Notes under the pieces: generated by a model | Told to the model about the DNA's origin: nothing | Seen by the model: the letters and a program-made list of their open reading frames with translations, nothing else | Database searches by the model: none | Shown here: one piece after another, positions 11,960 through 30,574 of the stretch | How positions within the stretch are numbered: position 1 is the first letter of the stretch | Layout: each line of letters opens with the position of its first letter | Position numbers and translations under genes: made by a program | From: an uncultured archaeon | GTDB taxonomy: Archaea > Asgardarchaeota > Thorarchaeia > Thorarchaeales > Thorarchaeaceae | Direction: 5' to 3' | DNA: 32,000 bases | Assembly (NCBI GenBank): GCA_964354495.1 | Contig: CAYHAA010000001.1 | Location: forward strand, 188,075-220,074

Positions 11960-13970
11960 TTAGCACCGCAGCTCCCCGAGAGAATTGCATCATCTCCTTC
12001 CCCGTAAGCAGCGCTTTGCCGGTAGCAAGTAGTCTACGTGCTTCATCGACGACGAGCACTTCTTCTCCCGCTCTGAGATTCTCGTGCGCATCCTTGACAA
12101 ACTTAGCAAGAGCGGACTTGCCATCAGCGATGAACTCTGCAACTTCATTGTCCATAGTGACTACATACTCCTTCTCTATGCCTGAACTGAGAAGTTTCTG
12201 CCCCCCGCAGTACGTTGGCGTAAGTAGACCGGTTGTTGGAACCATGGTGAAGAGAATGTCCTCACCATCCTTCACAAACCGGACCTTCCCGGTGTTTCTC
12301 GACAGTTCAACCTGCAGACCAGATGCATCTGCTAGTTTCTCTACCTGCCTGCCCCACTGGTAACTGAATACAGCCTTCAACTTCCTCAGAGTCCAATCTG
12401 AAGAATCCGAAGTCTCGCCTACAACGCGTAGAACCTCAGAGGCAGATGAGACACGCATGACTTCTCCAACATTCTTCAGGCTCTCAACTAGCCTACCGGT
12501 AGGGCCCTCTCGTTCGAACCAGACGAGTCTGTCGAGTGATATTCTGTCCAGAAACTCGTGCATCTTTCTCTCGGCACTACTGATTGTGGACTGATCAACA
12601 GAATCGGAGAAGATGCATTGCTGTGCTGGATGTACATGTTCGAGTTCCCAGGGAACAACTCCCATGGGCGTCAGAAAAAGCAAGATGAGGTCTCTTGGAG
12701 AATGTCTCTTGACTTCATTGACGATTGTGCTTGCGGTATCTGAAAATGGCCGATTACCAATATCCGGAACTACAACAACTGTGCGGGTCTCTCTGAAAGG
12801 GTATCTCTCCATCAATCTAGAGTGAAATCTGGCAATTTCGGGTCGTTGAATGGTTTCAGGTCCCGTGTAGAACACTGACGCAGATTTCCCGAATGGGTCT
12901 GCTTGCACGATTTGTTCCATGTTCGATGTCATGGCATGAAGGGCATCAAGTAGGGCGGGATGACTTCTTGCTCTGAGAGCCACAAGTTCGAATAACTTGC
13001 CATCTGCAATAGCTTGTCGGACCCGCTTCATTTCACCTGCTGAAATAAAGAGATTGTGCCGCATGAGTGCCAAATCTCTCTCTGCCTTGGGAAGCGACTT
13101 CAATTCATCCACTGTGGTGTTGCTGCAAACAGGGCAATCGCAGGGCAATTCAATCAGTTCCGCCAGATGCACAGTGCCCGACGGAAGGAGCATTCGACCA
13201 GAATCTGCAAACTTGGCATACGATGCTGAGTCGAAGAAATCGCATCCTAGATAGGCAGCCTGAGCAAATAGCATCGGATGTCCACATCCAAAGAGATGTA
13301 CCGGCCTGTCCGTTGGTAGATGCTTCTTAGCAGCAAGAATGATTCTTACTATGTCGGCATACCTATACATCTCCATGAACGGGACAACCCCACCAATAGG
13401 GTAGACGTCAAAATCCATTTCCGCCATGGCCTTCGCAGACCGCTCACGCAGGTCCTCATACAAACCACCCTGAATGGTGCCCGCCAACATCATGTTCTCT
13501 TTGATGCCCACGGACATCCTAGCTCTCTCGAGAGATAGGTCAACGTCTCTCTCCACTTGAGTTCGGCCCACATCTGGTCTGGAGAATGCATCCAGAATTG
13601 TACCAACGTCTGAACCAATCTTCTTCTGGAATTCAATGATTGCAAGGGGGTCTATCTGCTCCTTGGGCAGATCGTGGAAATACATCTGAAAGGTACCAGA
13701 ATCGGTCATTATCGGCCCATCCAGATTCAGTAGCCCGTGTACACCATCAATCAACGCTTTCTCCCGGAACTCATCACGTGAATTGATGATGTACGAGTTG
13801 GTGATGACCATTTCAAAACCAAATTCGCTTACTAGTTCGTTAGGACGTATTAGCGGCTTACCCGGGTGAACCACTGGCATGAGTAGTGGTGTCTTCACAG
13901 TTCCATGATTTGTTGTGAATCTGCCTAGTCTGGCAAGACCATCCTTTGCCTTTATCTCGAAGTTTGCCAT
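11937..13970 (-). CDS. tgtA: Archaeosine tRNA-guanine(15) transglycosylase
   Basis: MTDSGTFQ catalytic motif, GGVVP, HLFG, DSASY, Zn site CDCPVC...HN, C-terminal PUA domain. Confidence 0.93.
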   Translation of the reverse strand: MANFEIKAKDGLARLGRFTTNHGTVKTPLLMPVVHPGKPLIRPNELVSEFGFEMVITNSYIINSRDEFREKALIDGVHGLLNLDGPIMTDSGTFQMYFHDLPKEQIDPLAIIEFQKKIGSDVGTILDAFSRPDVGRTQVERDVDLSLERARMSVGIKENMMLAGTIQGGLYEDLRERSAKAMAEMDFDVYPIGGVVPFMEMYRYADIVRIILAAKKHLPTDRPVHLFGCGHPMLFAQAAYLGCDFFDSASYAKFADSGRMLLPSGTVHLAELIELPCDCPVCSNTTVDELKSLPKAERDLALMRHNLFISAGEMKRVRQAIADGKLFELVALRARSHPALLDALHAMTSNMEQIVQADPFGKSASVFYTGPETIQRPEIARFHSRLMERYPFRETRTVVVVPDIGNRPFSDTASTIVNEVKRHSPRDLILLFLTPMGVVPWELEHVHPAQQCIFSDSVDQSTISSAERKMHEFLDRISLDRLVWFEREGPTGRLVESLKNVGEVMRVSSASEVLRVVGETSDSSDWTLRKLKAVFSYQWGRQVEKLADASGLQVELSRNTGKVRFVKDGEDILFTMVPTTGLLTPTYCGGQKLLSSGIEKEYVVTMDNEVAEFIADGKSALAKFVKDAHENLRAGEEVLVVDEARRLLATGKALLTGKEMMQFSRGAAVLIRHSLNH

Positions 13971-14047
13971 GCATGCTCACCTGGGGAGTCTTCGGCTTAC
14001 CAAAGAATGTTTCCCTGCGTTGAGTTGGACTTATCACCAATAGCACA

Positions 14048-14055
14048 CTTTAAGA
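14048..14055 (+). promoter_or_regulatory. Putative TATA box for a leaderless hflX transcript
   Basis: CTTTAAGA about 25-30 nt upstream of ATG 14079; no RBS seen. Confidence 0.4.
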
Positions 14056-14078
14056 CAATATGGAATCGCCTTATAGCA

Positions 14079-15389
14079 ATGACCGATGTTACTGCAGTAC
14101 TGGTCCAACAGAGAAGATACAATGAACCTGACCTGCTCGACGAGTTTGCTGCTCTTGCAAATACTGCTCACTATCGCATCATAGGTACATACGATATTGT
14201 TGCTGCACCAGCTGCCAAGTATGGCATAAGAAGCGGCAAGGTAGAAGAGATAAAGACATGGATTGGTGTCAACAAGCCCGACTTTGTTTTGTTTTCTCCA
14301 TACCTGAAATCAGGCCAGCTCTTCAGGCTCATGGAAAAGTGGGAAACCGAGGTGAGAGATCGGACACAGGTGATTCTTGAGATTTTTGACTTGCACGCAA
14401 AGACTCAACAGGCAAAACTACAAATCGAACAAGCTCGGCTGAACTATGAATTACCGTTTGAACGGCACCAGCTTAGAATGAGACTCCAGAAAGAGCATAC
14501 CGGTGACCGACCTATTGCTGAGCAGATCGGTGCAGGTGAAGACCTGCTCAACCTCAGAGTTCACGAAATAAGACGACGGATATCATTGATCTCTGACAAA
14601 CTTAAGAAGATCTCTGAATCGCAGACACTTCTGAAGAAGAAGCGCGAGAGCATGGGATACATAGAGATAGCCTTGGCTGGGTATACTAATGCTGGGAAGA
14701 GCACTCTTCATAATGCACTCACAGGCTCAGGTGTAGAGATTGCCGATGAGCTCTTTACAACCCTTTCAACGAAGGCTGCTGAACTGAATTTGCCCGGCAG
14801 GCATATTGTGCTTTCTGATTCTGTTGGTTTCATTAGCAACTTGCCTCATGCCCTCTTGGAAGCATTCAACACAACTCTGATGGAGATCGGATCTGCAAAT
14901 ATCATCATTCTGGTTGTGGATGCATCTGACCCGGTAAAAGAGATGAATCGCAAGATACATGCATGCCTTGACACATTCAGAGAGATTGGAGCAAACGGAG
15001 TCCCCATTATCGTTGCCCTGAATAAGATTGACTTATCGGATGAGTCTTCAATAGCCTCTAGAAGCGAGCTCCTAAAGGATATTTCAAACAGTGTCATTCC
15101 AATCTCGGCCAAGAACAAGACGAATATTGACGAGCTTATCACAGCCATTGAGAAGACCTTGCCAAGCCTTTGGAGATATGCCATTGCGCTGCCCTATGGT
15201 GATGAGGGGATGTCTGTCCTATCTTTGCTACACGAAGTGGCTGTTATCGAATCCGAGTCATATTCTGAGGATTCAATTCAGGTCATCGCTCTGCTCGATT
15301 TTGAAGCAGAACAGAAGATATTGAAACTGCTACCAGTCACCAGTCTTCAGAGACTTCAAGCAAGTTCCAAGGCGGCTACAGCTGTCTAG
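14079..15389 (+). CDS. hflX: Ribosome-associated GTPase HflX
   Basis: LILxIF-type N-terminal motif (VILEIFDLHA, KLQIEQARL), G1 GYTNAGKS, G2 LFTT, G3 DSVG, G4 NKID, G5 SAK. Start placed at ATG 14079. Confidence 0.93.
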   Translation: MTDVTAVLVQQRRYNEPDLLDEFAALANTAHYRIIGTYDIVAAPAAKYGIRSGKVEEIKTWIGVNKPDFVLFSPYLKSGQLFRLMEKWETEVRDRTQVILEIFDLHAKTQQAKLQIEQARLNYELPFERHQLRMRLQKEHTGDRPIAEQIGAGEDLLNLRVHEIRRRISLISDKLKKISESQTLLKKKRESMGYIEIALAGYTNAGKSTLHNALTGSGVEIADELFTTLSTKAAELNLPGRHIVLSDSVGFISNLPHALLEAFNTTLMEIGSANIIILVVDASDPVKEMNRKIHACLDTFREIGANGVPIIVALNKIDLSDESSIASRSELLKDISNSVIPISAKNKTNIDELITAIEKTLPSLWRYAIALPYGDEGMSVLSLLHEVAVIESESYSEDSIQVIALLDFEAEQKILKLLPVTSLQRLQASSKAATAV

Positions 15390-15444
15390 AAGCACAGATT
15401 TTTAGGTCTTGGTCGCGGAATCACCGAATGTAGGGTTGCAGCCT

Positions 15445-16104
15445 ATGATTGTCATGAATCTAAAATCAAAGGAAAAGATCCTTGAGATGCTTGAAGGGTA
15501 CAATCGAATCGTATTATTCGGTGACTCTGGATGCGCGCAGCTCTGCGACGTCGGCGGGATTCTCCAGTTGGAAGACATGGAGGACTTTCTGACCAAGAAT
15601 GGAAAGGAAGTCCTGGGCTATATCTTCGTCGAGGGCGGGATATGTGATGAGCGTGCTCTCAAGAAAGAGATAGAGGAAAAGAGGGCAATCATTGACAAAG
15701 CAGATGCATTTCTCGTTCAGGCCTGTGGCGTCGCAACACAGAATCTCACGGAAATCCTTCCAGAGAGAGAGTCCTTTCCTGCCACAGACTCGAAATTCCT
15801 TGGAACGATGCCCGAGCGATTCCAACACAAAGAACGCTGCGCCATGTGCGGTGAATGCATTCTTGACCTCACTGCAGGTATTTGCCCAATTGCTCGCTGC
15901 TCCAAGGGAATTCTGAATGGTCCCTGCGGCGGATCGATGGACGGCAGATGTGAACGCGATGCCGGCACGGAGTGTGTCTGGCAGTTGATATTTGACCGTT
16001 TGAAGAAGCTAGATAAGTTGGACAATATCTCCAGAATCTGGGAGATTCGCGATTGGAGGCCTTCCCAGAGTCCTCGAAATATCATTCACTCACCCAGTGA
16101 CTGA
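15445..16104 (+). CDS. metV: Methylenetetrahydrofolate reductase small subunit (MetV-like, Cys-rich)
   Basis: CxxCGxC...CP...C.KG..NGPCGG....C.....CVW motif, directly upstream of metF. Start placed at ATG 15445. Confidence 0.85.
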   Translation: MIVMNLKSKEKILEMLEGYNRIVLFGDSGCAQLCDVGGILQLEDMEDFLTKNGKEVLGYIFVEGGICDERALKKEIEEKRAIIDKADAFLVQACGVATQNLTEILPERESFPATDSKFLGTMPERFQHKERCAMCGECILDLTAGICPIARCSKGILNGPCGGSMDGRCERDAGTECVWQLIFDRLKKLDKLDNISRIWEIRDWRPSQSPRNIIHSPSD

Positions 16105-16181
16105 TTATGCTTGTTCTCAACAAAAGGAAATTAAGGGGCTCAGTGTTCTTCAGGCAATCCAAAGTATAGGAGAGTTCTATT

Positions 16182-17114
16182 CTGTTAAGGACAAAGCTGA
16201 TGCGCGTATTGGAATCCGATGACTTCGTCGTGACATCTGAGATTGGCCCTCCCAAAGGAGCAGACAAGACGCTTGTCCTTGAGCGAACCCGTCTGGTCAT
16301 GGATTACTGCGATGCAGTCAACATCACCGACAATATTCGCGGCATACCATCGATGAGCAGCACTACCTGTGCTCACTTTGTCTTGGAGGCTGGTGCAGAG
16401 CCCATCATGCAGATGTCCGCACGTGACAGGAATAGAATATCCATTCAGAGCGAGCTCTACAGCGCATATGCACTTGGCATCCACAACGTGTTGTTCATCA
16501 CCGGCGACCATACCCTTCTTGGTTCACATCCCGAAGCGAAGATAGTCTATGACATAGACTCAATCCAGGCGCTCAGACTGGCGAGCCATCTCATGGGTGG
16601 TACTGACTTGGCTGGTGACAAACTCGAGGGCACACCAGAGTTCTTCCTAGGGTCTACCTTCAACCCTTATGCTGATCCCTTGGAGTTGCATGTGATACGA
16701 GCAGAGAAGAAACGTAACGCAGGAGCCAAGTTCTTCCAGACTCAAGCCATCTTTGATACAGCCCGCTTAGAAACCTTCATGGACAGGGCAGCTGACCTGA
16801 AGCTGAGAGTTCTTGCTGGCATCACTCCCCTCAAGGGTCCCATCATGGCGAACTTCATGAACAAGTCTGTGCCCGGTATCAAGATTCCGGATGAGTTCAT
16901 CAAACGATTAGAGGCTGCGGGTGAGGGTCTTAAGGGTGAAAAGAAGCGTGAGGCCACGCGTGCAGAAGGGCTTTTGATAGCGACAGAAACGATCAAGGCA
17001 GTCAGACGCATAAAGGGGATACATGGCGTGCACTTGATGGGTATAGGCTGGGAAGAGAGTGTCCCAGAGATTGTGAAGAGTGCTGGTCTTTATCCAAGGC
17101 CAAAAGTGAGGTGA
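16182..17114 (+). CDS. metF: Methylenetetrahydrofolate reductase (MetF)
   Basis: VTSEIGPPKG, VNITDN, RDRNR, LFITGDH, K..AGA.FFQTQ, GVHLM. Probable CTG start at 16182 after AGGAG; first ATG is at 16200. Confidence 0.9.
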   Translation: MLRTKLMRVLESDDFVVTSEIGPPKGADKTLVLERTRLVMDYCDAVNITDNIRGIPSMSSTTCAHFVLEAGAEPIMQMSARDRNRISIQSELYSAYALGIHNVLFITGDHTLLGSHPEAKIVYDIDSIQALRLASHLMGGTDLAGDKLEGTPEFFLGSTFNPYADPLELHVIRAEKKRNAGAKFFQTQAIFDTARLETFMDRAADLKLRVLAGITPLKGPIMANFMNKSVPGIKIPDEFIKRLEAAGEGLKGEKKREATRAEGLLIATETIKAVRRIKGIHGVHLMGIGWEESVPEIVKSAGLYPRPKVR

Positions 17115-17121
17115 GAGCGAT

Positions 17122-18039
17122 TTGTTCGTCTTCAAAAAAGAACAACAAACATATGAATTCGGTGGAGTCAAGATTGGTGGCCACCCGGGTGAGAATCCGA
17201 CCGTTCTAATTGGAGGTCTCTTCTTCAAGGGCCAGCCCATTGTGAAGGACACAAAAGAGGGTACATTCGATAAGAGTCTGGCTTTGGAATGGATTGACAT
17301 AGCCACGGGAATGGTCGACAAGACAGGCCACCCTCTCATAATTCAGGCATTTGGGAGGACTCCTGCTGCAATGGAGAATCATCTTGCTTGGCTCTCGGAA
17401 AACTTCAGTGGTCCGATAATGTTTGAATCTACCACCGCCGCAGCAAGGCTAGGAGCCATCAAATACTGCCATGATGCCGGTCTCCAAGAACGCATGATCT
17501 ACAACTCTATCAATCTGTCAATGAACGATGAAGAAAAACAGGTCTTGAAAGACAGCGGGCTCAATATGGCGGTCGTTCTTGGTTGGTCACCTCGCGCGAC
17601 ATCCCTACAAGATAGGATGAAGACTGTCAGGGACATGCTTGAGACCGCAAGAAACCTGGGGATGGAAAAAGTACTCATCGACCCGGCAACTATGCCGGTC
17701 GGCGCGGGATATGGCCTTGAATTCAGGACAATGATAGCAGTAAAATCAGAACTGGGTCTTCCAACTTGCCTTGCCCCGCACAATGCCCCCTCTGCTTGGC
17801 GATTCATCAAGCAGCCCGGTCTTGATGATGAATCAACACATATGGCGACAGTAGTTGCATCCACTGTGGCAGCCCAGCTATTCGTTACGGATTCGATCAT
17901 GTATGGTTCAATGATTCGGACCAAAGAGGTATTTGCAGCAGTTGCGCTCATTTCGAATGCAATTGCAGCTGCCGTTGCGGAGGCAATCAATGTTCTAGGT
18001 ATAGAGCGACCTCTCTTCATTCCGCCAACATTTGAATAG
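17122..18039 (+). CDS. mtrH: MtrH-family pterin methyltransferase, divergent paralog 1
   Basis: MFVFKKEQ...GGVKIGG.PGENPTVL, IYNSIN, LIDP, LPT...HN; TTG start after GAGGTG. Confidence 0.85.
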   Translation: MFVFKKEQQTYEFGGVKIGGHPGENPTVLIGGLFFKGQPIVKDTKEGTFDKSLALEWIDIATGMVDKTGHPLIIQAFGRTPAAMENHLAWLSENFSGPIMFESTTAAARLGAIKYCHDAGLQERMIYNSINLSMNDEEKQVLKDSGLNMAVVLGWSPRATSLQDRMKTVRDMLETARNLGMEKVLIDPATMPVGAGYGLEFRTMIAVKSELGLPTCLAPHNAPSAWRFIKQPGLDDESTHMATVVASTVAAQLFVTDSIMYGSMIRTKEVFAAVALISNAIAAAVAEAINVLGIERPLFIPPTFE

Positions 18040-18051
18040 GAGGCTGAAGAG

Positions 18052-18738
18052 ATGAACAACGATCATGAATGGCCACCGGTCCCTGGCGACTTTAATGTCA
18101 ATGACCCCTCACATTGTGTGGCTATTTGCACGCTGGGAAAACGAATTGAGATTCCTGGAGAGTATGCAATTGCAGGCTCCTGCAAGACTGAGAATATAGG
18201 TATTGAACGCATTATCATTAATGTCATATCTAACCCTAACATTCGATATCTCATCGTTGCAGGTCCCGAGGTTCCCGGTCATTTAACAGGCAGGTCTCTA
18301 CGTGCACTATTCCTCAATGGTGTAGATCCAAATACAAGAAAGATAATCAGTGCTGAGGGGGCGATACCCTATATCGAGAATGTTCCACTCGAAGGCATTC
18401 AGCGCTTTAGGGAGCAGATTGAGCTCGTGGACATGATCAATGTGCTCAGCCTGAGTCAGATTACAGAGAAAGTGGGGCAACTTGCTGGGCAGAATCCTGG
18501 GCTCTTTTCAAAGGACGCAATATGGATCGAGTTCAAAGCTTCATCTGGAGGAGCACGGAGAGCAATTATGTCTGCCAACATCATTATCCTTCCCGAGTAT
18601 GGTCTGTTCCTAGAGAATAACAGTTCCCTAGTGGCCAGACAAGAGGCTCACGCGATTGTCACGGAACACCCCTCCTCTATTGTCATCGAAGTGAGGGAAA
18701 GCGATACTGGCACTATTCTCGTGGGCAAGGAGGCATAG
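18052..18738 (+). CDS. mtrA: Soluble MtrA/MtxA-like corrinoid protein
   Basis: WPPVPGDF, GSCKTENIGIERII.N.ISNPNIR, EVPGHLTG (cobalt-ligand His), AIPYIEN; no C-terminal TM helix. Confidence 0.88.
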   Translation: MNNDHEWPPVPGDFNVNDPSHCVAICTLGKRIEIPGEYAIAGSCKTENIGIERIIINVISNPNIRYLIVAGPEVPGHLTGRSLRALFLNGVDPNTRKIISAEGAIPYIENVPLEGIQRFREQIELVDMINVLSLSQITEKVGQLAGQNPGLFSKDAIWIEFKASSGGARRAIMSANIIILPEYGLFLENNSSLVARQEAHAIVTEHPSSIVIEVRESDTGTILVGKEA

Positions 18739-18743
18739 TATCT

Positions 18744-19679
18744 TTGTTTGTTTTCGAGAAAGAGCAAATAATCCATAACATTGGCGGAGTCAAGATTGGA
18801 GGAAATCTCGGCGAGACTCCAACTGTTCTTGCCGGAACCATCTTCTACAGCGGGCACAAGATCGTTGAGAGTGCGGAGAAAGGCATTTTTGACAAGAATC
18901 TAGCAAGAGACCTTCTGCTAAAACAGGATGAGATGTCTGAAATGACAGGCAATCCTGCACTCGTGCAGATCTTCGCAGAGTCTGAAGAGGCTGTGGTGCG
19001 CTACATTGATTTTGTCACCAAGCTGTCTGATGCCCCATTTCTTATTGACTCAACTGAACCCAGGGTTCGAATTGCTGGATTGAAACACTGCGAAGAGGTA
19101 GGTCTCTCTGATAAGGCCATCTACAACTCTATCAACGTGTCCGCAACTCCCAGTGAGATTGAAGTCTTGAAAGAGTTGCGTCACGAATCTGCTATTGTTC
19201 TAGCCTTCAATCCCCAAGACCCCTCAATCGCGGGGAGGCGAGCAGTTCTTGAGAAGCCTATCTTGGAGAGAGAAAAGGGCCTCCTAGACTTGTGTCGTGA
19301 CATAGGCGTGACAAAGCCTCTCATCGACACAGCTGTCACAGCCATGGGTGCTGGAGCAGGCTCTGCTGCGGCCTTCACCTTTGTTTCAAAAACGGTGTAT
19401 GGCCTACCAACCGGGTCTGGGGTGCACAATGCTCCTTCGTCATGGACCTGGCTGAAGAAACACAGGAAGATTGACCGTGAGGCATATTTCACAACTGATG
19501 CAGCATCGAATGTCATAGTGCAAATGATGGGTGCTGATTTCCTACTCTATGGCCCGATTGAGAATGCCAATCGTGTGTTCCCTGTTGCTGCCCTTGCAGA
19601 TATCTTTGCGGCAGAATCCGGCTACTTGGAATTTGGAATTGAGCCTGGAGATAATCATCCGTTCAAGAAACTTCTCTGA
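18744..19679 (+). CDS. mtrH: MtrH-family pterin methyltransferase, canonical-looking paralog 2
   Basis: PTVLAGTIFY, FLIDST, IYNSIN, VLAFN, LIDTA, SGVHN, GADFLLYGPIENA; TTG start after AGGAGG. Confidence 0.9.
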   Translation: MFVFEKEQIIHNIGGVKIGGNLGETPTVLAGTIFYSGHKIVESAEKGIFDKNLARDLLLKQDEMSEMTGNPALVQIFAESEEAVVRYIDFVTKLSDAPFLIDSTEPRVRIAGLKHCEEVGLSDKAIYNSINVSATPSEIEVLKELRHESAIVLAFNPQDPSIAGRRAVLEKPILEREKGLLDLCRDIGVTKPLIDTAVTAMGAGAGSAAAFTFVSKTVYGLPTGSGVHNAPSSWTWLKKHRKIDREAYFTTDAASNVIVQMMGADFLLYGPIENANRVFPVAALADIFAAESGYLEFGIEPGDNHPFKKLL

Positions 19680-19694
19680 TAGGTGATGGCAATT

Positions 19695-21086
19695 ATGCGA
19701 GGCGTCTTGAGACCAAAGGCAATCGGACTATCCTCGCTCAGGATGGGTCCATTCTATACGGTCGCCTCTGTTGAACTTGGCAATACCACAACAAAGTGCA
19801 TTCTGGTCACAACGAATCTGGAAACCGCAGAGATATTCGAAATCGAAAAGGAAGTCAGGATGACGCGTGACGTGAGACCTCCGCAGGCGGATGAACAGGT
19901 ATTTGGCGAAACTCTGTTCGGAGTGCAATTGACTCGGGAATCAGTTGCTGAATTGGTCTCGAGTGTGCTAATCGCTGCCACGTCTCGGGCAGGAATCAAT
20001 ATTGAACGTGATCTTCACTTTGTAGTTCGCTCCACAGGCATCACTGCTAGCTTCGCCAATCCATCTGATGTTGGTGTTATCGTACAAGCTCTCGCGACTG
20101 GCTGTATTCAGGCAGGAATTCCCCCTCGAAAAATGACTGCGTCGATATCAGCTAAGAACTTGCCCACGGGTCTGCGAGAACTCACGTGGCTGAAGAAAGT
20201 GTATTTTGATGGGGCTGTTGCGTCCTCACTTCCACCAGCAAATACGGAAGTCGTTGCCAATGAGATGGAAGGCGAGCTGGTGACTGCAGGTATCAAGGGC
20301 GCAGTCAAGGGCACTGCTATCGATTTCAGGAACCCTGTGATGACCTTGGACTTCGGGACCACGCTTGCTGGCCGCATCACTGACAATGGATATCCGTATG
20401 CACGGACTATCGGCTCGTTTGCCGGGTTGGCTGGTGCAATACCCGATGCAATTACTCGTGGGTCTGGTCTGGTTCAATCTGAAACAGGGTGTGTTCTTGA
20501 TTTGCCTCATAGAGGCAGAATGTCGAAGATAGATATCAATCCGGAGCTGCTCGAACAAGTAAAGCGAATCATCCGGATCGAACGGGTCCCAAGAGGCTCG
20601 TCTCGATTTGGAACAGTACCAGTCAACACAGACGCCGCAGAAGAGTCGAATATCGTTCTAATCGGCGTGGACGCTGACCTCACCGCACTGGAGCGTTTCG
20701 GCTCCAGATTCAGTGGTTCAGAGGATGGAGCGTATCTGCTCCCCCTATTCGATAATCTTCAGGCGTGGATCCTACAGCGCATCGTGAGCATTGCTGACAC
20801 CGAGGGTCTAGTTCTTGATGAGACCTCCCTGGGACTGACAGGTAGGGCAATCACGAGCGGCCAGAAACCAAAACTGATCACTAAAGGGCTTCGGCTGAAT
20901 ACCGGAGACCTCTGGACAACATCGCACCAACTCGTCTTTGTGGAGGATGGTCTTGCAATGGGAGCTGCAGTAGCTGCAAGGTGCATGAACTCCATGGGGA
21001 CGCCACACAATCCAATGGGCGGTCGCAAAGGCGACCGATGTATCATGACTGAGAGGATGAAGCTTCAAGCTAAGAGGAAATCGTAA
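19695..21086 (+). CDS. Methanogenesis marker protein 14 (DUF2114; ASKHA ATPase fold)
   Basis: VASVELGNTTTKCIL, MTRDVRPP, LDFGTTLAG, VEDGLA.GAAV.ARCMNSMGTP.NP.GG motifs. Start is one of 19683, 19686 or 19695; 19695 has the best RBS spacing. Confidence 0.85.
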   Translation: MRGVLRPKAIGLSSLRMGPFYTVASVELGNTTTKCILVTTNLETAEIFEIEKEVRMTRDVRPPQADEQVFGETLFGVQLTRESVAELVSSVLIAATSRAGINIERDLHFVVRSTGITASFANPSDVGVIVQALATGCIQAGIPPRKMTASISAKNLPTGLRELTWLKKVYFDGAVASSLPPANTEVVANEMEGELVTAGIKGAVKGTAIDFRNPVMTLDFGTTLAGRITDNGYPYARTIGSFAGLAGAIPDAITRGSGLVQSETGCVLDLPHRGRMSKIDINPELLEQVKRIIRIERVPRGSSRFGTVPVNTDAAEESNIVLIGVDADLTALERFGSRFSGSEDGAYLLPLFDNLQAWILQRIVSIADTEGLVLDETSLGLTGRAITSGQKPKLITKGLRLNTGDLWTTSHQLVFVEDGLAMGAAVAARCMNSMGTPHNPMGGRKGDRCIMTERMKLQAKRKS

Positions 21087-21174
21087 TCGTTCTGCAATCC
21101 TTGGACGGTCGTCCATGATGTTCTTTGACAGTCTTTATCTTGATATCAATGTCTGTCTTGACCGGCGATCAACA

Positions 21175-21954
21175 ATGCTTGTGTACCCTATCAAGACACG
21201 CATCATTACAGAGAAAGATAACATCCTTGATGTCTTACTTGAGAGCCTTGCTCTTGCGGACATGGAGATTCTGGACAATGACATCATCACCGTTGCTGAA
21301 ACCCCACTTGGGACAACAGAAGGACGTATCGTGAAATTGTCAGATATCAAGGTTTCAAAGGAGGCTGCAAAGCTTGCAAAGAGGTATGAGTTGCTCCCTG
21401 AGATTGCTCAGTTGATCATACAAGAGGCGGATGAAATATTGGGGGGCATTCCTCATGTCGTCCTCACAATAAAGAACAACACTTTGATGGCTAATGCCGG
21501 GATTGACAAATCGAATGCGCCGCCAGGGCATGCATCACTGCTTCCACTGGATTCTCGTGCAAGTGCGGAGCGACTACGAGCAGAAGTGAAGAAGAGGACA
21601 GGGAAGACCATTGGCGTCATGATCATTGATAGCAGAACTCAGCCACTGAGACTTGGAAATATAGGCCTGGCTCTGGGAGTTGCAGGTTTCAAACCTGTCG
21701 CTGATGATCGGGGACGCAAGGACCTCTTCGGGAATGTGTTACGAATCACGAGAAGAGCTGTGGCCGATAATCTGGCCTCTGCATGCACAGCTGTCATTGG
21801 CGAGTCCAATGAGTCCGTCCCAGCGGCATTGATACGTGACGCTCCTGCTGAGTTTGTTGACGAGTCATTTGATTCATCTGAGATGTGGATTTCTCCAACG
21901 GAGTGTATGTATATGGCTATCTTCAACCAATGGCGTCAAGGTTATACAAACTGA
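21175..21954 (+). CDS. cofE: Coenzyme F420-0:L-glutamate ligase (CofE family)
   Basis: ANAGIDKSN, IIDSRTQPLRLG...A.GVAG, DLFG..L.IT..AVAD.LA, GES.E..P. Start placed at ATG 21175. Confidence 0.85.
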   Translation: MLVYPIKTRIITEKDNILDVLLESLALADMEILDNDIITVAETPLGTTEGRIVKLSDIKVSKEAAKLAKRYELLPEIAQLIIQEADEILGGIPHVVLTIKNNTLMANAGIDKSNAPPGHASLLPLDSRASAERLRAEVKKRTGKTIGVMIIDSRTQPLRLGNIGLALGVAGFKPVADDRGRKDLFGNVLRITRRAVADNLASACTAVIGESNESVPAALIRDAPAEFVDESFDSSEMWISPTECMYMAIFNQWRQGYTN

Positions 21955-22081
21955 CAATCTTATTTAGTACCAGTCATATGAAATAGGTGCACTTCATCAC
22001 CAAGCGGATGTGTCCCTCTTCGAGAGAAGAACGGCCCCGGTAGTGTTCTATCATCACGGTGGAGTACAGACAGGAGTATCG

Positions 22082-23440
22082 ATGGATTTGGCGAAGAAAA
22101 GAGTTCTAATCGACGTCGCGAATGCAGGAGCCTCTGGGGACATGTTCCTCTCTGCATTGATTGATCTTATTGGGGAAGATGACGTTCTTTTGCCTGTCGC
22201 TGCCAGTCTTCTGATATACGACCCTTCTTTCAGACTATCTGTGACCTCTAAGTCTCACTCAGGATACACCGGTAGGCAGCTGCAAATCACTCGTAATCCT
22301 GCTATACGACTCAATCCTGACTCGCTGATGGGAGCCCTACTTTCAGTTGCAGAAGAGATTGAACTTACGCCTCGAGCAAAGAATCTTGCCAAGGAAGCTC
22401 TGACAATCATCTTTCAGGCAGAAAGCAGAGCGCATAACAAACCAATATCTGAACTGCGGCTGCATGAAACTGGGTCCATTGATACAGTGTTGGACCTTGT
22501 GGGTACTGCATATCTTCTAGAACGCGCAGGACTGCTGGAAGATGCCGAGTTCGTTGCGACACGCGTTGCGGTTGGCAGCGGCACAATTGCGACAGAGCAA
22601 GGAGACCTCGAAGTTCCCGGACCAGCAGTTGCTGAGATTCTGGTCGGGCACGACATTCTCTTCCATAACGGTGAAGCCCGGACCGAGGTACTGACTCCAA
22701 CGGGAGCTGCACTTTTGGCCGCAATCACCAAAGTCTATGTGGATGCCTACGATGGCTTTGTGGCACAGAATCAGGGAATTGGTTTTGGTACCCGTGACTT
22801 GGGCAACATCCCGAACATGATGCGCATTGTAGTTGGCGAACTTGTTGTCCAAGAGGAAAAGAAGCCAGTTTCACCTCCAAAGGAAGAATCAAAGAAAGCG
22901 GCTGCGAAGGAGGGAAAAGCACCACCGGATTCGAAATCAAAGGCTGAAGAACGTTCGGAAGTGCTTGACGAGTGGAGTGCTGATGAGGTAGTTGTCATTG
23001 AAACGAATGTCGATGATGTTGACGGTGAGACCCTTGGTAGCCTCTTTGATACGCTGCTCGTAGAAGGATTGGCCTATGATGTCATTGTCATCCCAGCGTT
23101 TGGCAAGAAGAATCGACCATGTTTCCTCGTGAAGGTCATTGCGGCAAAGACAGGTCTGAAGAGTATTGCAGAGGTCATGATGCGCCATCTAGGAACAACT
23201 GGAATTCGATACTCGACTTGGCGACGATTGAAGGCAGCACGTGAAACAATCGTCTGTAGCCTGAACATTGATGACAAAGAATACATGGTTCGTGTCAAAG
23301 TTTCTCGCACGACAGATGGAAGTATCATCAGTATCAAACCAGAAGATGATGATGTGGAGCGTGTATCTCGTGAAACCGGCATTCCTATTCGTGAACTGAA
23401 ACCGAGGATTGCAATGCAGGCTCACGCGGTCACTGAGTAA
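22082..23440 (+). CDS. larC: LarC-like nickel-pincer cofactor Ni-insertase (DUF111)
   Basis: GASGDMFL.AL, HETGSID...D.VG, VPGPA, TPTGAA, GFG, ETNVDD..GE, KKNRP, TTG.R, KPE.DD; AGGAG RBS before ATG 22082. Confidence 0.85.
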   Translation: MDLAKKRVLIDVANAGASGDMFLSALIDLIGEDDVLLPVAASLLIYDPSFRLSVTSKSHSGYTGRQLQITRNPAIRLNPDSLMGALLSVAEEIELTPRAKNLAKEALTIIFQAESRAHNKPISELRLHETGSIDTVLDLVGTAYLLERAGLLEDAEFVATRVAVGSGTIATEQGDLEVPGPAVAEILVGHDILFHNGEARTEVLTPTGAALLAAITKVYVDAYDGFVAQNQGIGFGTRDLGNIPNMMRIVVGELVVQEEKKPVSPPKEESKKAAAKEGKAPPDSKSKAEERSEVLDEWSADEVVVIETNVDDVDGETLGSLFDTLLVEGLAYDVIVIPAFGKKNRPCFLVKVIAAKTGLKSIAEVMMRHLGTTGIRYSTWRRLKAARETIVCSLNIDDKEYMVRVKVSRTTDGSIISIKPEDDDVERVSRETGIPIRELKPRIAMQAHAVTE

Positions 23441-26638: not shown

Positions 26639-26793
26639 ATAGTGCATGTTTGATGCCGGCTACACATGCAACCAGCTTATTCCTAGGGCCTGTTCTTCAT
26701 CATCTATTCAATCGGCATAGACTCAAATAGCGGAAATAACATTTATCGCCCGGTGTCCCAAGAGTGGATACCAACTAGTTCAGGGTGCATAAG

Positions 26794-27360
26794 ATGGTAA
26801 CTGCACTATTCAAGGTCGTACTCATGGGAGATGGAAGCGTCGGAAAGACGAGTCTCCGTAGGACCTACATGGGAGAAGGATTCCGAGCCAACTACATGAT
26901 CACCATTGGTGCTGACTTTGCAGTGAAGAAGATGCAGCTTCATGGCGGCCATGATGTAAGCATTCAGATCTGGGATCTCGCAGGACAGGAACACTTCAAG
27001 AGTGTACGTTCCACCTTCTACCGTGGAGCTCAGGGTGCACTTGCGGTGTATTCAACTGTCGAGCGGGGATCTTTTGATAACCTTATGAATTGGGTGGACG
27101 AGTGCTGGACCAATGCTGGCAAGAAGATACCAATCGTACTGATTGCGAACAAGACTGACCTTCGAGACCAGTTCAAGGACAATCCAGTCATGGCGAAGAC
27201 CATCGTGACCACAAAAGAAGGTCAGAAACTGGCAGACAAGATTGCAGGCTATGGTGTAATCACATCCTTCCTTGAAACGAGTGCAAAGACAGGAATAAAT
27301 GTAGAGGCTGCCTTCCTAGAACTGGCAATCAAGATTCTGGAAGCTGGTGGACTGGCCTAA
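26794..27360 (+). CDS. Rab-like small GTPase 1
   Basis: GDGSVGKT, TIGADF, WDLAGQ, FYRGA, NKTD, ETSAK; no C-terminal Cys motif. Start placed at ATG 26794. Confidence 0.92.
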   Translation: MVTALFKVVLMGDGSVGKTSLRRTYMGEGFRANYMITIGADFAVKKMQLHGGHDVSIQIWDLAGQEHFKSVRSTFYRGAQGALAVYSTVERGSFDNLMNWVDECWTNAGKKIPIVLIANKTDLRDQFKDNPVMAKTIVTTKEGQKLADKIAGYGVITSFLETSAKTGINVEAAFLELAIKILEAGGLA

Positions 27361-27370
27361 TCACAGTCCA

Positions 27371-28591
27371 TCAATCATCTTCTAACACTCCAAGGTTTCT
27401 CTGTATCGTTTCAAAAAGATCACTAGCAGCAGTCTGGAGTATCTCTGCATCGTCCGCAAAGATGTCAATCCGGATTCTGGATAGGCTGTCTTCCTTTTTG
27501 CCAACAACAGTTGTTGTGACTGCAATTCTGGTTCCACTGAATTTGCCCCTTGCTAGTCCTGCTTCAACTCCCATGAATACTCCTCCCCTCTCTAGAACAT
27601 CATTTTGGAATACGTAGAGGTTCTTGCCTTCTAGAATTGGCTGTATGGACTTGAAGAAGCCTGTTGCCTCTGCAAGTACAGTATGCTCCCGGTTCCATTG
27701 TTTCATCTTCGACTTCATATGGACGAACTCATCGGATGTTGTTTCAAGAGGGATGAACCGCTCAAACAAAGAGCGCACAAAGACATTTCCTGCCTTTGCT
27801 GAGAGATCCTCACCTTTAGAGTCCATAAGGTGCACAGAAGTGATGATCTCTCCTTCTATACACTCACCATGAATTGTGAAACCAAAGATGAGCGAGCCAC
27901 TCTGCCCTTGGTCGATGAACTCTATTGTTTGTGCCAACGGATCGACTGGCACAAGGGACTCCTGTGGATATGCAAGGATTTTCACAGTGATGTCGCTTAT
28001 CGGAGTGTCCATCTCATTCTTTATAGTGATGCCATACTCCAATGTTTCAGAGGTAGTTGTGTACTGGTTCACGATAAGGACATCATCCGTTGTCCGGAGA
28101 GGAATCGTATCAGTATCGAGAAGCAGCTCGGTTGGGTCCTCTCGCGATTTTGCTGATGGTTTGCTTTTTCGCGCCTCTTTGCCATATTTCATGAGCCATT
28201 CTAGGGCGAATTCTACTACCTCTTTCACCGTTGAATCATTATCACTAGTATGTTTCTTGAGAATAGGTACAGCATCACTTCTGTTCGTGTGTGCCAACAT
28301 ACCTGCTGCTACTGTTCGTATCAGCGGGTTTTCATTGTTCAGAGCAATGTCCAGAGAATCGAACGCATCAGCACCAAACTCTCCCAATCTGCAGACTGCG
28401 AGTAGTTGCAGATCTTCATCACCAGTCAGAGCTGCGTCTCTACACGCCTGAATGCTCATGACCTCTCTCAACATCCTCTCTATTTTATCTTCAGTCGGCT
28501 TGAAGATTCGCTTTATTGCTTTCTTTAACCCACTGACTGATTCTCCACCACCAAGCGCTTCTGACACTACTCTATCAGGTTTTTGGGGCAA
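27371..28591 (-). CDS. HEAT-repeat protein with a C-terminal adaptin/coatomer appendage-like region (Ig-like sandwich plus platform)
   Basis: HEAT-type repeats (LLAVCRLGEFG; LIRTVAAGMLAH; VKEVVEFALEW), linker, beta-rich domain (YGITIKNE..TPISDITV), then FERFIPLETTSDEF...RIRIDIFADD. HEAT call is firm; appendage call is by eye. Confidence 0.7.
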   Translation of the reverse strand: MPQKPDRVVSEALGGGESVSGLKKAIKRIFKPTEDKIERMLREVMSIQACRDAALTGDEDLQLLAVCRLGEFGADAFDSLDIALNNENPLIRTVAAGMLAHTNRSDAVPILKKHTSDNDSTVKEVVEFALEWLMKYGKEARKSKPSAKSREDPTELLLDTDTIPLRTTDDVLIVNQYTTTSETLEYGITIKNEMDTPISDITVKILAYPQESLVPVDPLAQTIEFIDQGQSGSLIFGFTIHGECIEGEIITSVHLMDSKGEDLSAKAGNVFVRSLFERFIPLETTSDEFVHMKSKMKQWNREHTVLAEATGFFKSIQPILEGKNLYVFQNDVLERGGVFMGVEAGLARGKFSGTRIAVTTTVVGKKEDSLSRIRIDIFADDAEILQTAASDLFETIQRNLGVLEDD

Positions 28592-28752
28592 GGAATTACC
28601 TTCGAGGCATCTCGCTCTTGTTTTGGTATTTAATCATTATTGTGCGTGAAGTGAAACCTGTCATCTGCAACACAGGTACCGAGCTTTGTCTGCATTCACA
28701 ACACTTTTACGGCATCCCTGAATTCTTTCTCTGTCAATCGGCCTTGCGTGTG

Positions 28753-29883: not shown

Positions 29884-29884
29884 T

Positions 29885-30439: not shown

Positions 30440-30477
30440 GAGAACGAACTCCATCTTCTTTGAGAGAGGCTTAAGGC

Positions 30478-30526
30478 ATTTAAATCTCTACTTTGAGTCA
30501 GAGGACAGGCTCAAACTATTTAATAA
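30478..30526. promoter_or_regulatory. Candidate divergent TATA boxes between GTPase 2 and roadblock
   Basis: ATTTAAAT (30478-30485) and TATTTAATAA (30517-30526) in the 135-bp divergent gap. Confidence 0.45.
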
Positions 30527-30574
30527 GCAACCACACAATTCGACAAGTACTGCAAGGACTGATGGTGTGTTCAT

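What the first reader, a model, noticed from the sequence alone, without database searches (positions are those of the whole stretch)
15445..21954. Putative soluble corrinoid methyl shuttle: MetVF + MtrH1-MtrA-MtrH2 + marker 14 + CofE
Seen: seven co-oriented genes, with gaps of about 5-15 bp from metF to marker 14. Two MtrH paralogs sandwich an unanchored MtrA, and there are no mtrBCDEFG or mcr genes in the window. Established: MtrH-family enzymes move methyl groups between a pterin and a corrinoid; methanogen MtrH uses H4MPT and Desulfitobacterium MtgA uses H4folate. MetVF is the acetogen-type methylene-H4folate reductase. Inference: MtrH1 and MtrH2 could load and unload the same corrinoid with different carriers, exchanging methyl groups between H4folate and H4MPT pools, or feeding a methylated substrate into the Wood-Ljungdahl pathway without ion pumping.
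Basis: partly seen in the sequence, partly recalled or inferred. Interest (0 to 1): 0.8.

Follow-up and report, generated by a model that had tools for sequence, protein, structure and literature searches.

The report
Soluble Mtr-derived methyl-transfer operon, Thorarchaeia
An Asgard (Thorarchaeota) genome carries a membrane-free leftover of the methanogens' vitamin-B12 methyl-transfer machine, joined to a methylene-pterin reductase; the gene set is real and family-wide but partly published, and the proposed shuttle between two different C1 carriers is not supported in this genome.

Summary
The seven co-oriented genes exist as described: MetV, MetF, MtrH-a, anchorless MtrA, MtrH-b, methanogenesis marker 14 (DUF2114) and a CofE homolog. 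The genome has no McrA and no MtrE. The organism is a Thorarchaeota MAG. The four-gene core MtrHa-MtrA-MtrHb-marker 14 is kept in 20/20 loci sampled from the family.

This is not new as a gene set. Adam et al. 2022 (PMC9635834) reported canonical MtrAH plus marker m26 (DUF2114) in Thorarchaeia. This scan also found the same operon earlier on other Thorarchaeia DNA (three follow-ups).

- RFAP synthase, the committed H4MPT step, is over cut-off in 1/86 family genomes against 184/314 other Asgard genomes.
- This genome also lacks Ftr, Mtd, Mer and CODH/ACS, and has a single DHPS.
- Both flanking MtrH copies belong to the canonical MtrH clade; neither is MtgA-like.

Added here:
- MtrHa is a Thor-only long-branch paralog with a fixed Asp-to-Glu active-site change.
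- Marker 14 has an ASKHA fold and is predicted to dock on MtrA's cobamide face (score 0.64, best control 0.00).
- The CofE homolog is an orphan (no CofD, no FolC), so it is a FolC2-like pterin glutamylase candidate.

The final methyl partner remains unknown.

The parts
15409..16104 (+). MetV: small Cys-rich subunit of MetVF-type methylene-pterin reductase
   Evidence: PF12225 110.7 bits. Cys-rich C-terminal half. Next to the cluster in only 11/20 related loci.
16200..17114 (+). MetF: methylene-tetrahydropterin reductase catalytic subunit
   Evidence: PF02219 108.4 bits. Best NCBIfam match is the MTHFR half of NF006396. Adjacent to mtrHa in 18/20 loci.
17122..18039 (+). MtrH-a: Thorarchaeia-specific, fast-evolved paralog of canonical MtrH
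   Evidence: PF02007 244 bits, below the TIGR01114 cut-off. Only one full-length 50%-identity cluster among 1.84 billion representatives, then a drop from 494 to 183 bits. Stem length 0.84 inside the canonical clade. Glu replaces Asp103 in 21/21 orthologs, Gly replaces Thr32 in 20/21, and the basic patch is lost; N129, D196, H229 and N230 are kept.
18052..18738 (+). MtrA: soluble corrinoid protein without membrane anchor
   Evidence: PF04208 191 bits. Matches PDB 8q3v_A and 5laa over residues 6-167. His77 in the PGH motif is invariant in 21 orthologs. No TM helix.
18744..19679 (+). MtrH-b: canonical MtrH-type methyl-pterin:corrinoid methyltransferase
   Evidence: TIGR01114 391.1 bits, over the 271.4 cut-off. 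274 bits to M. mazei MtrH 9qtp_o. All pterin-pocket residues and the basic patch are kept. Groups with methanogen MtrH.
19683..21086 (+). Methanogenesis marker 14 (DUF2114, m26): ASKHA-fold protein, candidate MtrA-specific cobamide activase or chaperone
21115..21954 (+). CofE-family gamma-glutamyl ligase: orphan, candidate pterin/folate glutamylase (FolC2-like)
   Evidence: PF01996 228.6 bits; TIGR01916 186.9 against a cut-off of 180.65. CofD family absent in G000 and found in only 9/86 family genomes. No Mur-ligase/FolC in 11/11 genus genomes. Beside the cluster in 20/20 loci.
22010..23440 (+). LarC-like nickel-insertion protein: co-oriented neighbour, link to the module unproven
   Evidence: PF01969 300 bits; TIGR00299 and NF052512. 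Next to the CofE homolog in 20/20 loci, but the whole TGT-to-PolB block is syntenic.
14007..15389 (+). HflX GTPase: co-oriented upstream neighbour, probably unrelated
   Evidence: TIGR03156 270.7 bits. Syntenic in 20/20 loci.

Best explanation
This is the Thorarchaeia-wide, membrane-free derivative of the methanogen Mtr methyltransferase.

How it most likely works:
- MetF (here with MetV) interconverts methylene- and methyl-tetrahydropterin.
- An MtrH-type TIM-barrel enzyme moves the methyl group between N5 of the pterin and the cobalt of a soluble MtrA. MtrA keeps its histidine ligand but has lost its membrane anchor.
- Two MtrH proteins of common canonical descent serve MtrA: MtrHb (conservative) and MtrHa (a lineage-specific, fast-evolved copy with a fixed Asp-to-Glu pocket change). 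They act either as a heterodimer or as catalysts of two different half-reactions.
- Marker 14, an ASKHA-fold protein, docks on MtrA's cobamide face and most likely keeps or returns the cobalt to the active Co(I) state, or loads the cobamide.
- The CofE homolog probably adds glutamates to the pterin carrier, not to F420.
- The carrier is most likely a single folate-type pterin rather than H4MPT.

Shown: gene identities, conservation, the missing genes, the phylogeny, the fold and the docking prediction.

Inferred: the direction of methyl flow, the pterin's identity, the roles of marker 14 and CofE, and the final methyl donor or acceptor, which is not encoded in the cluster.
For: Gene identities.

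Conservation: MtrA is in 77/85 family genomes. MtrHa-MtrA-MtrHb-marker 14 is kept in 20/20 loci. In one locus (L049) the four-gene block is inverted as a unit without MetVF. MetF is adjacent in 18/20.

MtrA: His77 is invariant and there is no TM helix.

MtrH phylogeny: the canonical clade (support 100/99) holds MtrHa, MtrHb and methanogen MtrH. Both paralogs keep N129, D196, H229 and N230 (residues defined in PMC12774963). MtrH is a homodimer in Mtr and in MtgA.

Marker 14: ASKHA fold. The predicted MtrA-marker 14 complex scores ipSAE 0.64 against a best control of 0.00. That mark was reached by 58 of 80 solved complexes and 2 of 110 mismatched pairs. The runs agree in at least 74% of contacts and partner pLDDT is at least 82. 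My own alignments were used, so these counts hold only roughly. The interface covers MtrA 46-53, 75-77 (including His77) and 103-110. On marker 14 it covers the invariant stretch 128-159. No similar solved complex exists by sequence.

Published link of m26/DUF2114 with Mtr, including Thorarchaeia: PMC9635834.

Folate-type carrier: Fhs-FolD-FTCD operon; DHPS plus MptE beside GcvT/H; RFAP synthase over cut-off in 1/86 family genomes against 184/314 elsewhere in the phylum.

CofE as orphan: CofD absent and FolC absent. Precedent: the Chlamydia CofE homolog CT611 complements an E. coli folC mutant (PMC1971073).
Against: No biochemical data exist for any of these proteins.
- H4MPT-type enzymes persist in the family: Ftr in 61/86 genomes and Mch in this genome. 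A single folate-type carrier is therefore not proven.
- MtrHb is by descent and score a canonical H4MPT-type MtrH.
- With one pterin, two active MtrH enzymes on one corrinoid protein give no net reaction unless they form one complex or a third partner exists. That partner is unidentified.
- The whole TGT-to-PolB block is syntenic, so the CofE and LarC adjacency may be inherited order rather than function.
- The CofE homolog passes the CofE equivalog cut-off, though only narrowly.
Confidence: 0.55

Rival explanations
1. First reader's model. MtrHa and MtrHb load and unload the same MtrA cobamide with two different pterins. This shuttles methyl groups between an H4F pool (MetVF side) and an H4MPT pool.
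For: - MtrHa, next to metF, has a fixed altered pocket (Asp103 to Glu, Thr32 to Gly) and has lost the basic patch proposed to hold the H4MPT/H4SPT tail. MtrHb keeps all of these.
- Many family members keep Ftr (61/86), and 41/86 keep an archaeal-type CdhC.
- The literature credits Thorarchaeota with both THF and THMPT Wood-Ljungdahl versions (PMC6737245).
Against: - RFAP synthase is over cut-off in 1/86 family genomes, but is readily found in 184/314 other Asgard genomes.
- This genome also lacks Ftr, Mtd and Mer and has one DHPS-like gene.
- The cluster is equally kept in genomes without Ftr or CdhC.
- Both MtrH copies descend from canonical MtrH; neither is of the MtgA lineage.
Confidence: 0.1
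2. Anabolic methyl-cobamide supply. The cluster makes methyl-MtrA from methyl-pterin to feed a thiol methyltransferase, above all methionine synthesis. It would be a split functional analogue of MetH: reductase, pterin barrel, corrinoid protein, second barrel or an unlinked core synthase, reactivating ATPase and pterin glutamylase.
For: - MetF's usual role is methionine synthesis (established knowledge).
- Price et al. predict that MtrA is the methyl donor of core methionine synthase MesA in methanogens (PMC7857596).
- No PF01717 (MetE/core) and no PF02574 (MetH homocysteine domain) were found in 7/7 genus genomes.
- The cluster is near-universal in the family whether or not ACS, Ftr or MttB are present, as a housekeeping function would be.
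- MtrHa has two clade-specific conserved Cys, one just before the HN motif.
Against: - No homocysteine-binding or zinc site has been shown in MtrHa.
- The PF01717 search did not ring in the M. acetivorans control, which has only MesC. A MesC-type synthase could therefore be present but unseen, and the 'missing synthase' argument is weak.
- Peptide fermenters may simply import methionine.
- A motif search for SAH hydrolase found nothing convincing.
Confidence: 0.15
3. Catabolic methylotrophy. The module takes methyl groups from methylated substrates into the pterin pool. MetVF, FolD and Fhs then oxidise them, or ACS uses them where it is present. No ion pumping is involved.
For: - Adam et al. 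and others suggest that MtrAH funnels methyl groups into the WLP (PMC9635834).
- Genus relatives carry MttB homologs (5/6).
- A third MtrH sits beside a classical B12-binding corrinoid protein in this genome.
- The oxidative H4F branch is complete.
Against: - No substrate:corrinoid methyltransferase (MT1) is in the cluster in any of the 20 loci.
- This genome lacks MttB and CdhC, yet keeps the cluster intact.
- The classical MtgA/MtgC-like pair is the separate MtrHc locus, not this one.
Confidence: 0.15
4. Non-functional evolutionary remnant of methanogenesis, drifting towards loss.
For: Described as 'methanogenesis remnants' in PMC9635834.
Against: - All genes are intact.
- The core is kept in 20/20 loci at 50-80% identity, with catalytic residues and His77 invariant.
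- MtrHa shows fixed, not decaying, changes.
Confidence: 0.03

Closest known systems
Thorarchaeia 'canonical MtrAH' plus marker m26 (DUF2114), reported as methanogenesis remnants by Adam et al. 2022 (PMC9635834)
   Same: Same lineage and same genes. The paper reports canonical MtrA and MtrH without the other Mtr subunits. It also reports m26/DUF2114 tied to Mtr by distribution, phylogeny and synteny.
   Different: In the text I read, the paper does not describe several things: the second diverged MtrH, the MetF(V) and CofE linkage, the family-wide lack of RFAP synthase, CofD and FolC, or a physical MtrA-marker 14 contact. It leaves the function open.
Energy-conserving Mtr complex MtrABCDEFGH of methanogens (PDB 8Q3V, 9QTS)
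   Same: MtrA has the His-ligated cobamide fold. MtrHb has all pterin-pocket residues. The MtrH dimer is the working unit. Marker 14 co-occurs with it.
   Different: There are no membrane subunits and no MtrE, so no Na+ pumping and no CoM methylation. MtrA lacks the TM helix. There are two different MtrH genes instead of one. The module is joined to MetF, not to Mer or Mcr.
MtgABC-type glycine betaine system of Desulfitobacterium hafniense (MtgA, PDB 6SJ8/6SK4)
   Same: MtgA is a soluble MtrH-family methylcorrinoid:tetrahydrofolate methyltransferase working with a soluble corrinoid protein.
   Different: The corrinoid protein here is MtrA-type, not the B12-binding_2/B12-binding type. No MttB-like MT1 is in the cluster. 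The MtgA model scores 175 and 211 against a cut-off of 550. The MtgA/MtgC-like pair of this genome is the separate MtrHc locus.
MtxXAH of Methanosarcina: soluble MtrA and MtrH homologs of unknown role (from my own knowledge, Harms and Thauer 1997)
   Same: An anchorless MtrA homolog is encoded together with an MtrH homolog outside the Mtr complex.
   Different: Not tested here. It has one MtrH-like gene, an MtxX gene, and no MetF or marker 14 linkage as far as I recall.
RACo/RamA ATP-dependent reductive activases of corrinoid proteins (PDB 3ZYY, 4C1N)
   Same: An ASKHA-fold ATPase binds the corrinoid protein at the cobamide. RACo chains are among the top Foldseek matches. Marker 14 is predicted to dock on MtrA's cobamide face.
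FolC2 (Chlamydia CT611), a CofE homolog acting as folylglutamate synthase (PMC1971073)
   Same: A CofE-family gene sits in an organism that lacks the other cof genes and FolC but has DHPS, and it lies next to folate genes.
   Different: The Thor protein scores as CofE (186.9 against 180.65), not as TIGR04132 (107 against 350). Its activity is untested.

Membership tests
Mtr complex (MtrA-H) | MtrA corrinoid subunit with histidine cobalt ligand | tested here: met
   PF04208 191 bits; aligned to 8q3v_A; His77 invariant in 21 orthologs. TIGR01111 scores 185, below its 249 cut-off.
Mtr complex (MtrA-H) | C-terminal transmembrane anchor of MtrA | tested here: not met
   Highest 19-residue hydropathy is 1.07. 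A conserved soluble tail takes its place.
Mtr complex (MtrA-H) | Membrane subunits MtrB-G, including the Na+/CoM subunit MtrE | tested here: not met
   No MtrE in the 97.7%-complete genome. None among the window ORFs.
Mtr complex (MtrA-H) | Canonical MtrH | tested here: met
   MtrHb: TIGR01114 391.1, over the 271.4 cut-off; it groups with Methanosphaera and Methanosarcina MtrH. MtrHa lies in the same clade but below the cut-off (242.6).
Mtr complex (MtrA-H) | Works with methyl-CoM reductase | tested here: not met
   No McrA in the genome.
MtgA-type methylcorrinoid:H4F methyltransferase | Match to the MtgA equivalog model | tested here: not met
   NF047990 scores 174.8 (MtrHa) and 211.4 (MtrHb) against a cut-off of 550. 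Both lie in the canonical MtrH clade.
MtgA-type methylcorrinoid:H4F methyltransferase | Use of tetrahydrofolate as the pterin | not testable with these tools
   The pocket residues shared by MtrH and MtgA are conserved in both paralogs. They do not discriminate between pterins.
MetVF-type methylene-tetrahydrofolate reductase | MetF (MTHFR) plus MetV (DUF5981) pair | tested here: met
   PF02219 108.4 bits and PF12225 110.7 bits. MetV is next to the cluster in only 11/20 related loci.
RACo/RamA reductive activases | ASKHA ATPase fold | tested here: met
RACo/RamA reductive activases | Fe-S cluster domain for electron delivery | tested here: inconclusive
   Only three invariant Cys (C141, C434, C453) and no classical cluster motif in 49 sequences. 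No dedicated test was run.
RACo/RamA reductive activases | Binds its corrinoid protein at the cobamide | tested here: inconclusive
   Prediction only: ipSAE 0.64 against a best control of 0.00. The interface includes MtrA His77.
CofE (F420-0:L-glutamate ligase) | Match to the CofE equivalog model | tested here: met
   TIGR01916 186.9 against a cut-off of 180.65, a marginal pass. NF009809 scores 193.7, below its 274 cut-off.
CofE (F420-0:L-glutamate ligase) | F420 pathway present (CofD) | tested here: not met
   The CofD family is absent in G000 and in 77/86 family genomes. CofC, CofG and CofH were not tested.
FolC2 (CofE-like folylglutamate synthase) | FolC missing while DHPS is present, in folate gene context | tested here: met
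   No Mur-ligase domain over cut-off in 11/11 genus genomes. DHPS-like plus MptE are present. The gene lies beside MetF and MtrH.
FolC2 (CofE-like folylglutamate synthase) | Match to TIGR04132 | tested here: not met
   107 bits against a cut-off of 350.
MtxXAH | MtxX partner and Mtx-type MtrA/MtrH | not tested
   No MtxX model was searched. NF010654 (a methyltransferase model that matches MtrA) scores 155.4, below its 279 cut-off.

The most novel reading that the evidence does not exclude
The four-gene core is a complete, self-contained soluble methyltransferase system built only from Mtr parts. MtrHb loads MtrA from methyl-pterin. The neofunctionalised MtrHa (fixed Glu for Asp103, Gly for Thr32, lost tail-binding patch, clade-specific Cys) unloads it onto a different acceptor, for example homocysteine. 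That would make the operon a non-homologous split analogue of MetH. A second pterin is another possible acceptor. Marker 14 would be the long-sought reactivating ATPase of MtrA, in methanogens too.
Probability: 0.25. Interest if true: 0.8.

Novelty: new variant of a known kind. Interest (0 to 1): 0.55.

Why it matters
Marker 14 (DUF2114) is one of the conserved 'methanogenesis markers' with no known function. How the cobamide of Mtr, the central energy-conserving enzyme of methanogenesis, is kept or returned to Co(I) is also unknown.

This operon offers a membrane-free system of four soluble proteins in which both questions can be tested at the bench. The docking prediction names the residues to mutate.

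It also bears on Asgard metabolism. The family appears to run 'H4MPT-type' enzymes (MtrH, Mch, often Ftr) without the committed H4MPT biosynthesis gene and without F420. Published reconstructions that credit Thorarchaeota with two parallel Wood-Ljungdahl branches may therefore need revision.

If MtrHa unloads MtrA onto a new acceptor, this would be a new kind of corrinoid methyltransferase.

Tried and rejected
- RNA evidence: the look-up of sequencing runs (kind rna) listed no RNA holder, only two contig sets sharing 0.23 of the words. Nothing was laid, and nothing can be said on expression.
- SAH hydrolase: a motif search in six-frame ORFs of the genome gave one unconvincing hit of 361 aa. 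It was dropped, and homocysteine metabolism remains unassessed.
- PDB 8Z9U (an MtrH chain that matches both paralogs): no paper found in the library.
- Naming more tree tips: the second listing of cluster members gave almost no organism names. The position of bacterial MtgA in my tree is therefore not shown. The MtgA comparison rests on HMM and PDB scores.
- VIA-align second look: it did not lift RACo above other ASKHA proteins, so I do not claim specific kinship with RACo.
- DUF2114 against PDB by sequence: no match even at E 10.
- Intergenic stretches 13940-14020, 16080-16215 and 21070-21125: I saw no clear TATA-like box or T-run. The operon structure rests on the gaps and on conservation only.
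- MtrHa:MtrHb heterodimer against the homodimers: not tested, because the single complex job went to MtrA plus marker 14.

Full report
**What is there.** The window codes for nine co-oriented genes from 14007 to 23440:

| Gene | Coordinates | Evidence |
|---|---|---|
| HflX | 14007-15389 | TIGR03156 270.7 bits |
| MetV | 15409-16104 | PF12225 110.7 bits |
| MetF | 16200-17114 | PF02219 108.4 bits |
| MtrH-a | 17122-18039 | PF02007 244 bits; TIGR01114 242.6, cut-off 271.4 |
| MtrA | 18052-18738 | PF04208 191 bits |
| MtrH-b | 18744-19679 | TIGR01114 391.1 bits |
| Marker 14 / DUF2114 | 19683-21086 | TIGR03285 567.5 bits |
| CofE homolog | 21115-21954 | TIGR01916 186.9, cut-off 180.65 |
| LarC | 22010-23440 | PF01969 300 bits |

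The gaps from metF to marker 14 are 7, 12, 5 and 3 bp. MetV and MetF are 95 bp apart.

MtrA has no membrane anchor. Its highest 19-residue hydropathy is 1.07, and a conserved soluble tail of about 60 residues follows the corrinoid domain. The cobalt-ligand histidine (His77, PGH motif) is invariant in 21 orthologs. The rest of the window holds Ras-family GTPases, a roadblock protein and WD40 and HEAT proteins. The nearest marker 14 proteins are named Candidatus Thorarchaeota.

**Genome context.** The assembly has 3.30 Mb in 51 contigs and is 97.7% complete.
- It has no McrA and no MtrE.
- It has one MtrA and three MtrH.
- The third MtrH (MtrHc, contig 1, about 40 kb downstream of the window) lies beside a classical B12-binding corrinoid protein. 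It groups with a Bathyarchaeota MtrH-like protein, not with the two copies in the window.

**Conservation.** MtrA of this type is found in 77/85 other genomes of the same family. It is almost absent from other Asgard families, which instead carry longer MtrA-containing frames. These resemble the MtrAH fusions described for Atabeyarchaeia and Freyarchaeia (PMC11291895).

In 20 loci taken from about 13 genera:
- The order MtrHa-MtrA-MtrHb-marker 14 is kept in 20/20.
- MetF is adjacent in 18/20 and MetV in 11/20.
- CofE and LarC are nearby in 20/20.
- In one genome (L049) the four-gene block is inverted as a unit and MetVF is missing. This marks the four genes as the functional core.

One caution: the whole stretch from TGT to PolB is syntenic. 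Adjacency of the outer genes is therefore weaker evidence of function.

**Already known.** Adam et al. [quoted passage not shown] They also state that marker m26, which their supplement defines as DUF2114, is tied to Mtr by distribution, phylogeny and synteny, 'even including the Thorarchaeia clade'. Earlier follow-ups of this scan described the same operon in three other Thorarchaeia genomes. The gene set is therefore not a discovery of this window.

**The two MtrH proteins.** The residues that line the pterin pocket of M. mazei MtrH and D. hafniense MtgA are Asp103, Asn129, Asp196 and Asn230, plus Thr32, Gln75 and His229. A basic patch (Arg239, Lys242, Lys243) is proposed to hold the pterin tail (PMC12774963).

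- MtrHb orthologs keep all of these.
- MtrHa orthologs keep Asn129, Asp196, His229 and Asn230 in 21/21. They have Glu for Asp103 in 21/21 and Gly for Thr32 in 20/21. They lack the Lys242/Lys243 patch and carry two clade-specific conserved cysteines.

These are fixed changes in an otherwise conserved enzyme, not decay.

Among 1.84 billion representative proteins, MtrHa has a single full-length cluster of relatives. The score then falls from 494 to 183 bits.

A careful tree gives a clade with support 100/99. It contains MtrHa (stem length 0.84), MtrHb, and Methanosphaera, Methanosarcina and Methanosarcinales MtrH (names). An AU test does not reject MtrHa plus MtrHb as one Thor clade (p 0.286).

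Both copies therefore descend from canonical MtrH, and neither is an MtgA-type enzyme. The MtgA model scores 175 and 211 against a cut-off of 550. MtrH works as a homodimer in the Mtr complex, with only one active site facing MtrA. A MtrHa/MtrHb heterodimer is therefore a natural possibility, which I could not test.

**Which C1 carrier.**

Present in this genome:
- An Fhs-FolD-formiminotransferase operon.
- MetVF.
- A glycine-cleavage T/H pair next to a single DHPS-like gene and an MptE-type pterin kinase.

Of the H4MPT branch, this genome has only Mch. It has no Ftr, no Mtd, no true Mer (best 191 bits against a cut-off of 348.7) and no RFAP synthase.

The last absence is a property of the lineage. 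RFAP synthase passes its cut-off in 1/86 family genomes, against 184/314 genomes of other Asgard families searched the same way.

The CofD family is missing in 77/86 family genomes. F420 is therefore probably not made either, which fits the absence of the F420-dependent Mtd and Mer.

Against a simple one-carrier picture, 61/86 family genomes keep Ftr. I record this as unexplained.

CdhC (ACS) is absent here. It is present in 41/86 family genomes, and 11 genera lack it entirely. The Mtr cluster is kept regardless. Its role therefore cannot depend on ACS.

The H4F-to-H4MPT shuttle needs an H4MPT pool, and neither this genome nor its family shows the committed biosynthetic gene for one. I give the shuttle about 0.1. 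The altered pocket of MtrHa keeps it from being excluded.

Feeding a Wood-Ljungdahl pathway is not possible in this genome as assembled. There is no CdhC, and no MttB either.

**Marker 14.** A model built on 49 sequences (pLDDT 76.5, pTM 0.83) has an ASKHA fold.
- Foldseek matches Kae1/TsaD, sugar kinases and the corrinoid activator RACo (3zyy and 4c1n, ranks 4 and 6).
- No PDB chain matches by sequence.

A complex prediction of MtrA with marker 14 passed. The score was 0.64 in the best runs against 0.00 for the best of three controls. That mark was reached by 58 of 80 solved complexes and 2 of 110 mismatched pairs. The runs agree in at least 74% of contacts, and partner pLDDT is at least 82. 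My own alignments were used, so these counts hold only roughly.

The predicted interface on MtrA is the conserved cobamide face: residues 46-53, 75-77 (including His77) and 103-110. On marker 14 it is an invariant stretch (about 128-159 and 173-176) that is disordered in the monomer model. This supports binding but does not show it. It fits a role as cobamide activase or loader of MtrA.

**The CofE homolog.** It passes the CofE model only narrowly. It sits in a lineage without CofD and, in the 11 genus genomes searched, without any Mur-ligase/FolC domain. DHPS is present.

This is the same 'locally missing gene' logic by which the Chlamydia CofE homolog CT611 was predicted to replace FolC. CT611 was then shown to do so by complementation of an E. 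coli folC mutant (PMC1971073). I therefore read the gene as a candidate pterin glutamylase. This is an inference, weakened by the general synteny of the region.

**Methionine idea.** Price et al. predict that MtrA donates methyl groups to the core methionine synthase MesA in methanogens (PMC7857596). No PF01717 and no PF02574 domain was found in seven genus genomes. However, the PF01717 search does not ring in M. acetivorans, which has only MesC. A MesC-like enzyme is therefore not excluded. I keep an anabolic methyl-cobamide role as a rival at about 0.15, and as part of the novel case.

**Overall.** The locus is a real, strongly conserved, soluble derivative of Mtr. Its parts list is published, and its function is not known.
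- The case against a second C1 carrier.
- The anatomy and descent of MtrHa.
- The orphan status of the CofE homolog.
- A specific, testable docking of marker 14 on MtrA.

Noticed in passing
G000 contig 1, 259160-261072 (locus L064:9160-11072, minus strand): A third MtrH homolog (326 aa) lies next to a classical B12-binding_2/B12-binding corrinoid protein (218 aa). This is an MtgA/MtgC-like pair with no MT1 gene beside it. It groups with a Bathyarchaeota MtrH-like protein.
   Followed up: partly
whole genome G000 compared with its genus: This genome lacks CdhC, Ftr and MttB. By contrast, 21/27, 23/27 and 5/6 genus relatives have them. It is either a reduced C1 metabolism in this species or missing contigs.
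   Followed up: partly
family f1 (86 genomes): Ftr is present in 61/86 genomes, but RFAP synthase passes its cut-off in only 1/86. The pterin used by the H4MPT-type enzymes of Thorarchaeaceae is unexplained.
   Followed up: partly
G000 contig 4, 143905-149541 (locus L066:5905-11541): Formiminotransferase-cyclodeaminase, FolD and Fhs form a minus-strand run, divergent from a RuBisCO large-subunit homolog.
   Followed up: no
G000 contig 3, 136170-139432 (locus L071:6170-9432): GcvH and GcvT are divergent from a DHPS-like pterin-binding gene. That gene overlaps an MptE-like hydroxymethylpterin diphosphokinase gene.
   Followed up: no
L080 (G356:C70:3820-5235, minus strand): The MttB homolog of a genus relative has one in-frame TGA. 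This may be a selenocysteine or a recoded site rather than the usual UAG/pyrrolysine of MttB.
   Followed up: no
window 22010-23440: A LarC-like nickel-insertion protein is kept directly after the CofE homolog in 20/20 related loci. No LarA, LarB or LarE was looked for.
   Followed up: no
loci L046, L061, L057 and others: MetV is variable. It is absent next to MetF in 7 of the 18 loci that have MetF, and in two loci it is separated from MetF by 2-5 kb. The reductase's electron-input subunit is therefore not a fixed part of the module.
   Followed up: partly
window 26785-30958: Two Ras-family GTPases, a HEAT-repeat protein, a WD40 propeller and a roadblock/LC7 protein are clustered, which is typical of Asgard signature genes.
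   Followed up: no
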